The notes beneath the pieces are model-generated. The model did no database searches. It had not been told where the DNA came from and saw only the letters and a program-made list of their open reading frames with translations. This document shows positions 33,942 through 36,127 of a DNA stretch of 39,611 bases, piece by piece. The stretch lies in the IMG/VR virus record IMGVR_UViG_2563366977_000005, positions 1-39,611 of that record; one strand, given 5' to 3'. Source of the stretch: a virus. Its lineage: Duplodnaviria; Heunggongvirae; Uroviricota; Caudoviricetes. The first letter of the stretch is position 1. Every line of letters starts with the position of its first letter. The translations under genes and the position numbers were made by a program.

Positions 33942-34649
33942 ATGGATTTGAACAAATTCGATGAGCCATTCAGCCCTGAAGATATCGAATGGCGAATACA
34001 GCAAAGCGGTAAAACACGCGATGGCAAGGTGTGGGCTATGGTGCTGGCTTATGTCACGAACCGGGCAATCATGAAACGCCTGGACGATGTTTGCGGCAAA
34101 GCAGGATGGCGCAATGAATACCGCGATATTCCCAACAACGGCGGAGTTGAATGCGGCATATCAATCAAGATTGATTCCGAATGGGTAACCAAATGGGATG
34201 CTGCTGAAAACACGCAGGTAGAAGCCGTCAAAGGTGGTCGTTCAGGTGCAATGAAGCGTGCTGCCGTTCAGTGGGGAATCGGTCGGTATCTGTATAACCT
34301 TGAGGAAGGTTTCGCACAAACATCTCTCGATAAAAAGCAGGGGTGGCACAGGGCAAAACTGAAGGATGGAACAGGATTTTGCTGGCTCCCTCCATCGCTG
34401 CCGGGATGGGCAATCCCAGCATCAGATAACAAACCATCACCAGAAAATACCAACCAGAAATCTCCATCGGTTGACTGCGAACAAATCCTGAAAGACTTCA
34501 GCGATTATGCGTCAACAGAAACTGACAAGAAAAAACTCATCGAGCGTTATCAGCGTGACTGGCAATTAATGGCTGGCAACGAGGAGGCGCAGGCTAAATG
34601 CGTTCAGGTAATGAACATCAGAGTTAACGAACTAAAACAGGCGGCATAA
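33942..34649 (+). CDS. Single-strand annealing recombination protein (Rad52-like N-terminal region, Erf-like C-terminal tail), 235 aa
   Basis: C-terminal 60 aa (...YASTETDKKKLIERYQRDWQL...VQVMNIRVNELKQAA) resemble recalled P22 Erf; N-terminal region resembles Rad52/Sak-type annealing proteins. Confidence 0.75.
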   Translation: MDLNKFDEPFSPEDIEWRIQQSGKTRDGKVWAMVLAYVTNRAIMKRLDDVCGKAGWRNEYRDIPNNGGVECGISIKIDSEWVTKWDAAENTQVEAVKGGRSGAMKRAAVQWGIGRYLYNLEEGFAQTSLDKKQGWHRAKLKDGTGFCWLPPSLPGWAIPASDNKPSPENTNQKSPSVDCEQILKDFSDYASTETDKKKLIERYQRDWQLMAGNEEAQAKCVQVMNIRVNELKQAA

Positions 34650-35156
34650 ATGGCAAGCAGAGGCGTAAATAAGGTGATTATCCTTGGTCGGGTAGGACAA
34701 GACCCGGAAGTTCGATACTCACCATCAGGAACAGCGTTCGCTAACCTGACAATAGCCACGTCAGAACAATGGCGAGATAAAAATACTGGCGAGCAAAAGG
34801 AATTGACTGAATGGCATCGTGTTGCTGTATCCGGGAAACTGGCTGAGGTCGTGGGGCAGTATGTGAAAAAAGGTGATCAGATTTATTTCGAGGGAATGCT
34901 GAGAACCAGAAAGTGGAAAGACCAGTCAGGGCAAGACCGTTACACAACCGAGGTTCATGTCGGAATTAATGGCGTGATGCAAATGCTTGGCGGCATTGGC
35001 GACAGCAAACAACAAGCAGCCAGCAGGCAATCACAGAAGCCACAGCAGCAATCATCACCAGCACAACACAACGAACCTCCGATGGATTTTGACGACGATA
35101 TACCCTTTGCACCAGTAACTCTCCCCTTCCCTCGTCACGCTATTCACGCAATTTAA
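34650..35156 (+). CDS. ssb: Single-stranded DNA-binding protein (168 aa) with 15-aa extension beyond the DDDIPF motif
   Basis: OB-fold region and Gln-rich linker are SSB-like; MDFDDDIPF is present but followed by [15 protein letters not shown]. Confidence 0.85.
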
Positions 35157-35169
35157 TCAGGAGAAAATC

Positions 35170-35463
35170 ATGCCAGCGCCTCTGTATGGTGCGGATGACG
35201 CGCGCCGCTGTTCCGGCAATTCCGTATCGGAGGTGCTGGATAAATTCAGGAAAAACTACAACCGGATAATGTCGCTACCGCAGGAAACGAAAGAGGAAAA
35301 GGAATTTCGCCATTGTATATGGCTTGCAGAGAAAGAAGAACGCGAGCGAATTTACCAGACATCAATCCGACCATTCCGCAAAGCCACATATACCCACTTC
35401 CCTGAAATTGACCCGCGCCTGCGTAATTACCGCTCACGCTATGGCGCTATCAGTAATGACTGA
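35170..35463 (+). CDS. Hypothetical protein (97 aa), possibly Abc2-like anti-RecBCD
   Basis: Position next to recombination genes and size; identity from memory only. Confidence 0.5.
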
Positions 35464-35473
35464 GGAATTTACC

Positions 35474-35638
35474 ATGAGAGGACTTGCATACAATCCCGGC
35501 ATTCTTCCGGCAGAAATGATTATTCGCCAACGCGTAAAGCCAATGCCATCGAGAGAGGAATTGCTTAAGAGAAATTCTTTTCCATCAGTAAATCAAAACA
35601 AATATCTGAATGCGATGTGGCGGAGTGGGAAGAAATGA
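35474..35638 (+). CDS. Small ORF (54 aa)
   Basis: Internal Met of ORF 35324-35638 placed just after the previous stop. Confidence 0.35.
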
Positions 35639-35913
35639 AACAAATGTCACTAATTGAGATGGATGGATTTCTGAAAGGTAAATGCATCCCACGAGATTTA
35701 AAGGTTAACGAAACAAACGCTGAATATCTTGTCCGTAAGTTCGGTGAACTTGAATCAAAACTCAACGAGCAGCGTGAGTATTACGAAGGTGTTATCTCGG
35801 ATGGGAGTAAGCGCATTGCTGAACTGGAGAAAAGCGAAGAGCAACTCATTATTGAGCAAGCAACTCACTGGATGCCACTACCAGAACCGCCACAGGAGTC
35901 GAAGAGTGAATAA
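35617..35913 (+). CDS. Hypothetical acidic coiled-coil protein (98 aa)
   Basis: ORF overlapping neighbours by short junctions. Confidence 0.45.
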
Positions 35914-36127
35914 AGCAGAGTTATTTCAGAAAATATCGGCTCTCGCGACTGAATGCCACGCTATAGCATCTGAGCTTGATGTTGGCGATGAACGAACCGA
36001 GATGTTCGAAATATACAGTGTGCTGCGCAATCTCTGTCGGCGTGGCTACGCCACTCAAGTAGGGCGAATGACTAACCCACTACTCTCATCCTGTGATGAG
36101 GATGACTCGGATGAGGATGACGAATGA
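35906..36127 (+). CDS. Small protein (about 73 aa) with strongly acidic C-terminus (CDEDDSDEDDE), GTG start
   Basis: AGGAG 7 nt upstream of GTG; the upstream part of ORF 35729-36127 looks non-coding and overlaps the previous gene. Confidence 0.35.
   Translation: MNKAELFQKISALATECHAIASELDVGDERTEMFEIYSVLRNLCRRGYATQVGRMTNPLLSSCDEDDSDEDDE

What the first reader, a model, noticed from the sequence alone, without database searches (positions are those of the whole stretch)
34650..35156. SSB whose normally C-terminal DDDIPF tip is internal
The protein has an SSB-like OB-fold region, a Gln-rich linker and the acidic motif MDFDDDIPF. In bacterial SSBs as I recall them this motif ends the protein and its free tip recruits partner proteins. 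Here the frame continues for 15 codons ([15 protein letters not shown]) before TAA. The extension could mask the interaction tip, giving an SSB that binds ssDNA but cannot recruit host factors, or it could be a stop-codon artefact.
Basis: partly seen in the sequence, partly recalled or inferred. Interest (0 to 1): 0.45.

Follow-up and report, generated by a model that had tools for sequence, protein, structure and literature searches.

The report
Phage SSB with capped interaction tip
This phage DNA-coating protein (SSB) carries a conserved 15-residue extension beyond the tip that bacterial SSBs use to recruit repair and replication enzymes, and this capped form is the normal, selected state in hundreds of prophages of gut bacteria, not an error.

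Summary
ORF 34650-35156 (+) encodes a 168-aa bacterial-type SSB with ...[11 protein letters not shown] followed by [15 protein letters not shown] and TAA. It is not an artefact. Of the 120 closest protein clusters, 111 have exactly 15 residues after the tip. So do 118 of 120 viral contigs found with a degenerate DNA pattern, and prophages in 16 species assemblies, 15 of them Enterobacterales. About 304 of 5,426 complete E. coli genomes carry this ssb.

The extension evolves like a coding motif. It shows synonymous variation and conservative replacements, and its pN/pS is about that of the OB domain and below the linker. It is predicted to be disordered. It sits on very different SSB N-terminal domains.

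In Sf6, Huey, IME10 and N7, an HNH endonuclease gene is inserted exactly after the IPF codon. That insertion restores a canonical IPF stop, and the HNH ORF reads out through the last 14 ssb codons. HNH relatives elsewhere lack this tail, so it belongs to ssb. The window holds the endonuclease-free allele.

The function is inferred, not shown. The cap probably removes the free Phe carboxylate that host partners need, and it adds a second short linear motif with an unknown partner. I classify it as a new variant of a known kind, apparently undescribed.

The parts
33942..34649 (+). Rad52/Sak-type single-strand annealing protein (235 aa). It lies immediately upstream, and its stop abuts the ssb start.
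   Evidence: Pfam PF04098 Rad52_Rad22, E 5e-26. The same gene precedes ssb in 69 of 120 related loci.
34650..35156 (+). ssb gene (168 aa plus TAA). It is a lambdoid Rec-module 'SSB-1' and is the endonuclease-free, extended allele.
   Evidence: It is 99.4-99.8% identical in DNA to ssb of phages HK75, mEp235 and mEpX2.
34650..34985 (+). OB-fold ssDNA-binding domain (residues 1-112).
   Evidence: PF00436 matches residues 6-104. The AlphaFold2 model has strands E8-E115 with block-mean pLDDT about 76-87 over residues 11-100 and 70 over 101-110. The domain aligns to solved SSBs. Trp41, Trp55, His56 and Trp89 are conserved. The EcSSB Phe60 position is Ser.
34986..35075 (+). Gln-rich disordered linker (residues 113-142).
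   Evidence: pLDDT is below 50 from residue 115 on. It has the highest pN/pS of the protein, 0.59-0.62.
35076..35108 (+). Canonical acidic SSB-Ct motif [11 protein letters not shown] (residues 143-153), here internal.
   Evidence: It is identical to the E. coli/Klebsiella SSB tip in the alignment. It is the most constrained segment, with pN/pS 0.06-0.11 and high synonymous divergence.
35081..35105 (+). Patch that differs between endonuclease-free and endonuclease-containing alleles. It is the candidate recognition or immunity region of the HNH endonuclease.
   Evidence: Window versus phage Huey: 0 mismatches over 34610-35080, then 8 mismatches in these 25 bases, and the next mismatch downstream is at 35196. 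The ECP1/Sf6 pair shows a similar but less sharp pattern: most mismatches fall in the last ~120 aligned columns, including the linker.
35109..35153 (+). 15-codon extension [15 protein letters not shown]. Family motif: [AS]-P-[VIAL]-[TG]-L-[PQM]-[FY]-P-[RK]-H-x-[IV]-[HYN]-x-[ILV]-COOH.
   Evidence: 111 of 120 nearest protein clusters carry exactly 15 residues after the tip, with Pro2 and Leu5 invariant and His10 in 110 of 111. 118 of 120 IMG/VR loci do too. pN/pS is 0.28 overall and 0.41-0.44 on codons not fixed by the search pattern. It is predicted disordered.
35109..35110 (+). Insertion point of the HNH endonuclease gene in related phages. The two bases GC are replaced there by TAA...(about 480 bp)...GACGAGGA.
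   Evidence: DNA alignment A1, junction sequences, and annotated Huey and Sf6 regions.
35170..35463 (+). abc2 anti-RecBCD gene (97 aa), downstream partner in the HK75-type recombination module.
   Evidence: Pfam PF11043 Anti-RecBCD_p2, E 2.7e-62. Module type as classified in PMC12315714.

Best explanation
This is a functional phage SSB from the recombination module of a P22-like/lambdoid phage (annealase, SSB, Abc2). Its natural C-terminus is a two-part disordered tail: the canonical acidic SSB tip [11 protein letters not shown], capped by a conserved 15-residue short linear motif. Shown here: (1) the cap is real and widespread in Enterobacterales prophages; (2) it has a fixed length and is under purifying selection at the protein level; (3) it moves as a module between very different SSB N-terminal domains; (4) it is predicted disordered; (5) the codon boundary after IPF is where a mobile HNH endonuclease gene sits in a minority of alleles, which truncates SSB to a canonical IPF-COOH and leaves the cap codons as the 3' end of the HNH ORF. 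The window carries the uninvaded allele. Inferred: Phe153 no longer has a free alpha-carboxylate, so the tip should bind poorly to the SSB-Ct pockets of host partners such as ExoI, the chi subunit, RecQ, PriA and RecO. The phage SSB would then coat recombination and replication intermediates without recruiting host nucleases or helicases. This fits its position beside an anti-RecBCD gene. The conserved cap would itself be a second docking or regulatory motif for a partner not yet identified. That partner is more likely a host factor or a widely shared phage factor than the adjacent annealase, because the cap occurs with at least four unrelated annealase types.
For: Sequence and family assignment.

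Cap present with exactly 15 residues:
- 111 of 120 nearest clusters.
- 118 of 120 IMG/VR loci.
- 60 of 64 loci chosen only by OB-domain identity.
- 16 species assemblies, 15 of them Enterobacterales.
- 304 of 5,426 complete E. coli genomes hold at least 80% of this gene.

Selection: synonymous codon variety at Ala154, Pro155, Leu158, Pro161, Arg162 and His163. pN/pS is 0.28-0.44 for the cap, against 0.37-0.49 for the OB domain, 0.59-0.62 for the linker and 0.06-0.11 for the tip.

Modularity: the same tail sits on E. coli-like OB domains, on divergent PF00436 OB domains ('MAINTITISG...', and the L054 and L021 types), and on a PHROG 743 SSB with no PF00436 match.

Partner not adjacent: upstream genes include Rad52-like, Sak4/AAA_24-like, RecT-like and YqaJ-like proteins.

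Tail is native to ssb: HNH relatives elsewhere end ...PIYP[DE][DE]xxxx, and only the ssb-adjacent ones carry [14 protein letters not shown]. One (P0124) ends in a different sequence after PIYP, which I read by eye as the tail region in another frame.

Presence/absence of the endonuclease gene in otherwise identical flanks.

Disorder.

Literature: appending GFP directly after the terminal Phe of EcSSB abolishes ExoI binding and chi-dependent synthesis, and is dominant negative (PMC7293020). Phage SSB tails recruit the cognate annealase (PMC5928155). Lambdoid SSB-1 proteins have not been studied experimentally (PMC12315714).
Against: - No binding, stability or genetic test was possible, so loss of host-partner binding is inferred from a bulky GFP fusion, not from a 15-residue peptide extension.
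- The internal DDDIPF is the most conserved segment. If the tip were simply disabled it should decay, so it must still work in some way: intramolecular docking on the OB fold, part of a composite motif, or exposure after processing.
- Phages with the endonuclease (Sf6, Huey) and some prophages (P0008 type) do well with an uncapped SSB, so the cap is not essential.
- Synonymous divergence is somewhat lower in the cap (pS 0.49-0.60 versus 0.71-0.94 elsewhere). Some DNA-level conservation or recent recombinational spread therefore contributes.
- The pN/pS estimates are pairwise, near saturation, and partly biased by the search pattern.
Confidence: 0.6

Rival explanations
1. Regulated or removable cap. 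The 15 residues are a degradation tag or propeptide. Either a host protease (ClpXP, FtsH or Lon) recognises the basic-then-aliphatic C-terminus (...[12 protein letters not shown]) and makes the phage SSB short-lived, or the cap is clipped after Phe153 to release a canonical tip at the right time.
For: The C-terminal residue is always aliphatic (I/V/L) and the penultimate one is small or aliphatic. From my own knowledge, this loosely resembles MuA-type ClpX tags (RRKKAI) and non-polar FtsH/ClpXP tails. The internal tip is under very strong purifying selection, as expected if it is exposed at some stage. Alleles ending exactly at IPF are viable. A cIII-type FtsH inhibitor gene lies in the same operon in related phages.
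Against: No known cytoplasmic endoprotease site is recognisable at F|AP. Processive proteases that start from a C-terminal tag would be expected to degrade the disordered linker too, rather than stop at Phe153. The resemblance to known degrons is recalled from memory and loose. Conservation of Pro155, Leu158, Phe/Tyr160, Pro161, Arg162 and His163, well inside the cap, goes beyond what a terminal degron needs.
Confidence: 0.15
2. Composite high-affinity motif for a specific host hub protein, for instance the beta sliding clamp. P-[VI]-[TG]-L-[PQ]-[FY] resembles the hexameric clamp-binding motif Q-phi-x-[LM]-x-[FL]. On this reading the cap adds a partner rather than blocking partners.
For: The hydrophobic pattern phi-x-L-x-F/Y matches the consensus given in PMC11139829, and Hda's QLSLPL has the same L-P-aliphatic ending. 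Cap variants track the host family across different OB types: Enterobacteriaceae have ...LPFPRHxIHA[IVL] and Morganellaceae have ...L[PMQ]YPRHxI[YN]VI. This is compatible with co-evolution with a host protein.
Against: The Gln at position 1, the main affinity determinant, is replaced by an invariant Pro. Tyr at the last position, common in this family, is not among the residues the review lists as tolerated there, namely Phe, Leu and Ile. Such short hydrophobic patterns arise easily by chance. Tracking of host family is equally explained by phages of one host family sharing a gene pool.
Confidence: 0.07
3. The conservation is at the DNA level and the peptide is incidental. On this reading the 45 bases serve as the homing or recognition site of the HNH endonuclease, as a recombination boundary sequence between mosaic modules, or as a signal for the downstream gene.
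For: The 45 bases are nearly identical in window, epsilon34, ECP1, Huey and Sf6, although the rest of ssb differs by 11-27%. Synonymous divergence in the cap is lower than elsewhere. The stretch sits exactly at a mosaic joint where different downstream genes follow.
Against: Across the wider family most cap codons vary synonymously while the amino acids stay fixed or change conservatively: 4 Ala codons, 3 Pro codons at positions 155 and 161, 5 Leu codons, 3 Arg codons, plus F/Y, I/V/L and R/K exchanges. The stop is always exactly 15 codons after IPF. No promoter-like, terminator-like or Rfam element is present. The ribosome-binding site of abc2 lies after the stop.
Confidence: 0.1
4. Scar of endonuclease-gene loss. 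The ancestral arrangement was SSB(IPF-stop)-HNH, and a deletion fused ssb to the last codons of the HNH gene, leaving a neutral read-through.
For: The same 14 residues end the HNH ORF in Sf6 and Huey. Deletion fusions of ssb and HNH do occur in decaying prophages (P0136, P0137).
Against: HNH homologues away from ssb do not have this tail, and one ssb-adjacent copy reads it in another frame. The cap occurs on SSB lineages and in host families where no HNH gene is present. It diverges together with those lineages while keeping its length and motif. Its pN/pS is well below the linker's.
Confidence: 0.05
5. Sequencing or assembly error, or a pseudogene that lost its stop codon.
For: None beyond the unusual position of the motif.
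Against: An identical or near-identical sequence is found in many cultured phages and hundreds of independent assemblies. Going from the canonical TTT-TAA to TTT-GCA needs several substitutions.
Confidence: 0.01

Closest known systems
E. coli chromosomal SSB (PDB 1EQQ/4MZ9) and its close relatives, including the Klebsiella SSB 7F2N
   Same: OB-fold domain alignable over residues 1-115. It has the conserved Trp40/Trp54/Trp88 and His55 equivalents, a disordered linker, and an identical ...[13 protein letters not shown] motif.
   Different: The host protein ends at the Phe, and its free carboxylate is part of the docking signal. Here 15 conserved residues follow. The linker is shorter and Gln-rich rather than Gly-rich. 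The EcSSB Phe60 position is Ser.
Sf6 gp27, ES18 gp48 and Huey SSB ('SSB-1' of lambdoid Rec modules; PMC12315714)
   Same: Same gene at the same place in the same module. The Huey SSB gene is identical to the window's over 34610-35080.
   Different: Those alleles end at ...MNFDDEIPF or ...MNFDDSDIPF and are followed by an HNH endonuclease gene (two unrelated HNH types). In the Sf6/Huey type the cap codons have become the end of the HNH ORF.
HK620 SSB (HkaK, 'SSB-2') with its NDYPPF tail (PMC5928155)
   Same: A phage Rec-module SSB next to an annealase and abc2, whose C-terminal residues carry the partner-recruiting function. Deleting its last six residues reduces the stimulation of Sak4 recombineering about 10-fold and abolishes Sak4 binding to SSB-coated ssDNA.
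   Different: It is a different SSB family, its aromatic residue is terminal, and it has no cap. The window's cap occurs with several annealase types, so a one-to-one cognate pairing is less likely.
Engineered EcSSB with GFP fused directly after Phe177 (PMC7293020)
   Same: The SSB-Ct is made internal.
   Different: It is artificial and uses a bulky folded domain. It loses ExoI binding and chi-dependent function and is dominant negative. The natural cap is a short, conserved, disordered peptide, and its effect is untested.
Free-standing HNH homing endonuclease genes of phages (the general class, from my own knowledge of T4-type mob/seg and similar genes)
   Same: In relatives of this window: presence/absence polymorphism at one precise site in otherwise identical DNA, sequence divergence clustered next to the insertion point, insertion that preserves host-gene function, and two divergent HNH variants at the same site.
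   Different: Cleavage and homing have not been shown. The HNH ORF borrows its last 14 codons and its stop from the invaded gene. It matches no Pfam model, only PHROG 2340 'endonuclease'.

Membership tests
Bacterial-type SSB (Pfam PF00436 / TIGR00621) | N-terminal OB-fold ssDNA-binding domain | tested here: met
   PF00436 E 1.6e-36. TIGR00621 scores 166.9 bits against a cut-off of 53.95. phmmer to solved SSBs gives E 2e-59. The AlphaFold2 OB model has block-mean pLDDT of about 76-87 over residues 11-100.
Bacterial-type SSB (Pfam PF00436 / TIGR00621) | Conserved ssDNA-stacking aromatics (EcSSB Trp40, Trp54, Phe60, Trp88) and the tetramer-interface His55 | tested here: inconclusive
   In the alignment, the Trp41, Trp55, His56 and Trp89 equivalents are present, but the Phe60 equivalent is Ser. 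Oligomeric state and DNA binding cannot be tested with these tools.
Bacterial-type SSB (Pfam PF00436 / TIGR00621) | Intrinsically disordered linker followed by the acidic motif D-D-D-I-P-F | tested here: met
   Residues 115-168 have pLDDT below 50. [11 protein letters not shown] occupies residues 143-153.
Bacterial-type SSB (Pfam PF00436 / TIGR00621) | The acidic motif is the extreme C-terminus, so the last Phe has a free carboxylate for partner pockets | tested here: not met
   15 codons follow Phe153 before TAA. All SSB models and solved chains end at the position aligned to residue 153.
Capped phage SSB group defined here (tip plus 15-residue motif) | Exactly 15 residues after [IV]PF matching [AS]-P-x-x-L-x-[FY]-x-[RK]-H-x-[IVLM]-x-x-[ILV]-stop | tested here: met
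   The window tail [15 protein letters not shown] is the most common variant: 65 of 120 IMG/VR loci. Composition by position is given.
Free-standing HNH homing endonuclease gene (applies to the insert in Sf6/Huey-type alleles, absent from this window) | Presence/absence at a precise site in near-identical flanks, with divergence clustered at the junction | tested here: met
   4 of 64 loci with 98-100% identical OB domains carry the insert. Window versus Huey shows 8 mismatches within 25 bases at the junction and none in the preceding 470 bases.
Free-standing HNH homing endonuclease gene (applies to the insert in Sf6/Huey-type alleles, absent from this window) | HNH (beta-beta-alpha-metal) catalytic fold and motif | tested here: inconclusive
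Free-standing HNH homing endonuclease gene (applies to the insert in Sf6/Huey-type alleles, absent from this window) | Cleavage of the insert-free allele and gene conversion in mixed infection | not testable with these tools
   This needs in vitro cleavage of the 35070-35130 sequence and phage crosses.
Beta-clamp-binding motif (Q-phi-x-[LM]-x-[FL]; PMC11139829) | Gln at position 1, and Phe/Leu/Ile at the last position | tested here: not met
   Position 1 is an invariant Pro. The last position is Tyr in many members. Only the phi-x-L-x-F pattern matches.

The most novel reading that the evidence does not exclude
The cap is a dedicated rewiring device for the SSB interaction hub. By burying the Phe carboxylate it makes a 'stealth' SSB that coats phage ssDNA, and may co-assemble with host SSB. 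It would then deny ExoI, RecQ, RecJ, PriA and SSB-sensing defences access. Its own conserved motif would recruit a different, still unknown partner. A mobile endonuclease gene would act as a natural on/off switch that converts capped alleles into canonical ones.
Probability: 0.3. Interest if true: 0.75.

Novelty: new variant of a known kind. Interest (0 to 1): 0.55.

Why it matters
The free C-terminal tip of bacterial SSB is the docking signal for more than a dozen genome-maintenance enzymes, and it is an antibiotic target. A large natural family of SSBs in well-studied hosts (E. coli, Salmonella, Klebsiella, Proteus) keeps the tip under strong selection but caps it with a second conserved motif. 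This shows that phages have modified this hub in a way that I found described in no paper.

The case is unusually easy to test:
- Natural near-isogenic capped and uncapped alleles exist (HK75, mEp235 and this phage versus Huey).
- The phages are culturable.
- Established assays exist for SSB-Ct binding, ssb complementation and annealase-dependent recombineering.

It also bears on recombineering design, where SSB tails determine whether annealases work in a new host. It bears on how defence systems that monitor ssDNA metabolism see phage SSBs. It also gives a clean example of a homing endonuclease gene whose ORF finishes inside the gene it invaded.

Tried and rejected
- Full-text search for the peptide PVTLPF: no paper. 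Other literature searches found only context, not this feature.
- AlphaFold2 of the SSB, to see whether the cap docks on the OB fold or forms a helix: the whole tail has pLDDT below 50, so nothing can be said beyond disorder. Complex prediction with candidate partners is not available here.
- Cognate-annealase hypothesis: weakened, because the cap occurs next to Rad52-like, Sak4-like, RecT-like and other genes.
- Clamp-binding motif: fails on the defining Gln.
- DNA-level explanations: no promoter-like or terminator-like site. The only Rfam hit is a chance-level frameshift-element match inside the OB region (E 0.6).
- Scan of 1.66 Mb of fetched loci for the cap motif on other proteins: it occurs only after SSB tips (214 times) or at the end of the inserted HNH ORF (9 times).
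- Read-level support for 35128-35156 could not be examined. Comparative recurrence was used instead.

Full report
**1. The observation**

The window is a complete P22-like (Lederbergvirus-type) E. coli phage genome whose closest isolates are HZ41 and IME10. On the + strand, ORF 34650..35156 encodes 168 aa: MASRGVNKV...[30 protein letters not shown], then TAA.

Residues 6-104 match Pfam SSB (E 1.6e-36). TIGR00621 and the solved E. coli and Klebsiella SSBs align up to residue 153, which corresponds to their own last residue. So the description is accurate: an OB domain, a Gln-rich linker, the canonical acidic tip, and 15 further codons.

The gene lies between a Rad52/Sak-type annealase (33942-34649) and the anti-RecBCD gene abc2 (35170-35463). 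This is the 'HK75-type' recombination module of lambdoid phages as classified in PMC12315714. That paper also states that these SSB-1 proteins have not been studied experimentally.

**2. It is not an artefact**

The same gene with the same extension occurs in many independent sources:
- Phages HK75, mEp235 and mEpX2 carry it at 99.4-99.8% DNA identity.
- Phages epsilon34, g341c and NM-3 carry it at 89%.
- Phages ECP1, HZ41 and CP-1639 carry it at 72-75%.
- Among the 120 best protein clusters found by whole-protein similarity, 111 have exactly 15 residues after the tip, 7 end at IPF, and 2 are truncated or frameshifted.
In 118 of them the open reading frame runs exactly 15 codons after IPF and then stops. 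In the other two the frame could not be read.
- The same pattern found 16 hits in a one-genome-per-species collection. Fifteen are Enterobacterales: Escherichia, Enterobacter, Kluyvera, Lelliottia, Atlantibacter, Buttiauxella, Pseudescherichia, Proteus (3 species), Providencia (2), Moellerella, and a Symbiopectobacterium plasmid. The sixteenth is a contig labelled Chryseobacterium.
- 304 of 5,426 complete E. coli genomes hold at least 80% of this ssb.

**3. The extension is a selected peptide motif**

In the pattern-independent set of 111 tails, Pro2 and Leu5 are invariant and His10 is present in 110. Position 7 is F or Y, position 9 is R with rare K or S, position 12 is I/V/M, and position 15 is I or L.

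In a codon alignment of 93 distinct genes, most cap codons vary synonymously: four Ala codons at position 154, three Pro codons at 155 and at 161, five Leu codons at 158, and three Arg codons at 162.

Pairwise pN/pS by region:

| Region | pN/pS |
|---|---|
| Cap, all codons | 0.28 |
| Cap, nine codons not constrained by my search pattern | 0.41-0.44 |
| OB domain | 0.37-0.49 |
| Linker | 0.59-0.62 |
| Acidic tip | 0.06-0.11 |

These are crude pairwise figures near saturation. Synonymous divergence in the cap is also somewhat lower than elsewhere, so recent recombinational spread contributes. Even so, the direction is clear: the peptide is constrained, and the now-internal tip is the most constrained part of the protein.

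AlphaFold2 models the OB fold confidently and leaves residues 115-168 disordered. The cap therefore behaves as a short linear motif and not as a folded element.

**4. The tail is a mobile module**

The same composite tail ([12 protein letters not shown] plus 15 residues) is attached to several different N-terminal domains:
- E. coli-like OB domains.
- Much more divergent PF00436 domains ('MAINTITISGNVGKD...', and the L054 and L021 types).
- In one locus, a PHROG 743 SSB with no PF00436 match.

Neighbouring genes vary widely. Upstream genes are Rad52-like (69 loci), Sak4/AAA_24-like, RecT-like, YqaJ-like exonuclease, or HNH genes. Downstream genes are Abc2, a DnaQ-like exonuclease, or many others. 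The cap is therefore not tied to one adjacent phage partner.

Cap variants follow the host family. Enterobacteriaceae have ...[VI][TG]LPFPRHxIHA[IVL], and Morganellaceae have ...IGL[PMQ]YPRHxI[YN]VI, in both cases across different OB types. This fits either co-evolution with a host factor or simply separate phage gene pools.

**5. The endonuclease polymorphism**

In Huey, Sf6, IME10, N7 and CurroJimenez the SSB ends canonically (...PPMNFDDEIPF* or ...MNFDDSDIPF*). It is followed after about 10-15 bases by a 155-159-aa ORF that ends ...[27 protein letters not shown].

At the DNA level, the two bases GC (35109-35110) of the window are replaced there by TAA...GACGAGGA. The shared right flank starts at A35111.

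Thirty-four homologues show that the family's own C-terminus ends 4-6 residues after PIYP[DE]. Only the ssb-adjacent copies carry the 14-residue tail. One (P0124) ends in a different sequence after PIYP, which I read by eye as the tail region in another frame. In the model the tail is disordered. The tail therefore belongs to ssb, and the endonuclease gene invaded a capped allele.

Among 64 loci selected only for a 98-100% identical OB domain, 60 are capped and 4 carry the insert. Window and Huey are identical over 34610-35080. They then differ at 8 positions within 35081-35105, just left of the junction, and the next difference is at 35196. This clustering is the pattern expected for a homing endonuclease gene with an altered, uncleavable target.

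Further points from relatives:
- Huey and Sf6 carry divergent versions of the insert. Their 5' halves are 32-52% identical in DNA and their 3' ends are identical.
- ES18 has an unrelated HNH gene (T7 gp7.7-like) behind the same canonical-tip allele.
- An Enterobacter prophage has a canonical tip with no endonuclease gene.

The end of ssb is thus a hot spot, and both capped and uncapped SSBs are viable.

**6. Mechanism**

Shown: a conserved, disordered, modular cap on an SSB whose tip remains conserved.

Inferred from established knowledge: SSB partners bind the last residues in a pocket that holds the Phe side chain and pairs its carboxylate with basic residues. Fusing GFP directly after that Phe abolishes ExoI binding and chi-dependent Pol III strand displacement, and is dominant negative (PMC7293020).

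A 15-residue cap should therefore weaken canonical docking. That would give an SSB that protects phage ssDNA without recruiting host nucleases or helicases. This is a sensible companion to Abc2 and an annealase.

Masking alone does not explain the sequence conservation of the cap or of the internal tip. I therefore propose that the cap is also a docking or regulatory motif in its own right.

Candidates considered:
- A degron or propeptide. The terminus is aliphatic and preceded by basic residues. This is possible but unsupported.
- A clamp-binding-like motif. It fails on the defining Gln.
- Cognate-annealase recruitment, as for the HK620 SSB (PMC5928155). This is weakened by the variety of annealases.

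None of these can be tested with the tools available.

**7. Comparison and novelty**

By fold and sequence the protein is a member of the bacterial SSB family. It fails one defining feature, a terminal SSB-Ct.

No paper in the searchable library contains the peptide. The nearest published trace is the GenBank note on Sf6 gene 26, which records 14 residues identical to an 'E. coli SSB'.

I classify it as a new variant of a known kind. It is real, widespread and apparently undescribed, and its mechanism is inferred but readily testable.

Noticed in passing
window 35109-35110; L002 (Huey) 1963-2445; L003 (Sf6) 1975-2463: A 155-159-aa HNH-type endonuclease gene is inserted exactly after the IPF codon of ssb in about 6% of near-identical alleles. 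Its ORF ends in the last 14 codons of ssb. Huey and Sf6 carry versions whose 5' halves are only 32-52% identical in DNA.
   Followed up: yes
L220 (phage ES18) 2272-2831: ES18 has an unrelated HNH gene (T7 gp7.7-like) behind an ssb with the same canonical-tip 3' sequence as Huey, and no remnant of the 45-base tail. The 3' end of ssb seems to be a hot spot for endonuclease genes. PMC12315714 treats this HNH as a probable Rec-module member.
   Followed up: partly
window 34830-34832 (residue 61): The position of E. coli SSB Phe60, an ssDNA-contacting aromatic, is Ser in this SSB and in the Sf6/ECP1 lineage. The Trp40, Trp54 and Trp88 equivalents are kept.
   Followed up: no
L010, L029, L037, L039, L069, L112, L118 (just after the ssb stop): A conserved stretch that translates as VQGCKQEIDM follows the ssb stop in several loci, most with the ...YPRH-type tail seen in Morganellaceae. 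The downstream genes differ. It may be a mosaic boundary sequence with a ribosome-binding site.
   Followed up: no
L046 4828-5661: A 277-aa reading frame (253 aa from the likely start codon) matching PHROG 743 'single strand DNA binding protein', with no PF00436 match, carries the same tip plus cap ([23 protein letters not shown]). The tail module has therefore moved onto a different SSB class.
   Followed up: partly
L218 (CACSKA010000001.1, labelled Chryseobacterium sp. 18061): A 799-kb contig of a Chryseobacterium assembly carries an enterobacterial-type capped ssb. This is probably a mislabelled or contaminated assembly.
   Followed up: no
proteins P0136, P0137, P0144, P0124: Decayed prophage variants are present: in-frame SSB-HNH deletion fusions, an HNH fused by frameshift to the DnaQ-like exonuclease, and an HNH (P0124) that ends in a different sequence after PIYP, apparently the ssb tail region in another frame.
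   Followed up: partly
window 35324-35638 (+) and 35729-36127 (+): Long alternative-frame ORFs (104 and 132 aa, TTG starts) overlap abc2 and the genes after it. They are probably spurious and were not examined.
   Followed up: no
window 34833-34858: A weak Rfam match to a Gag/pro ribosomal frameshift element lies inside the OB-coding region (21.6 bits against a gathering score of 43, E 0.6). This is chance level.
   Followed up: yes
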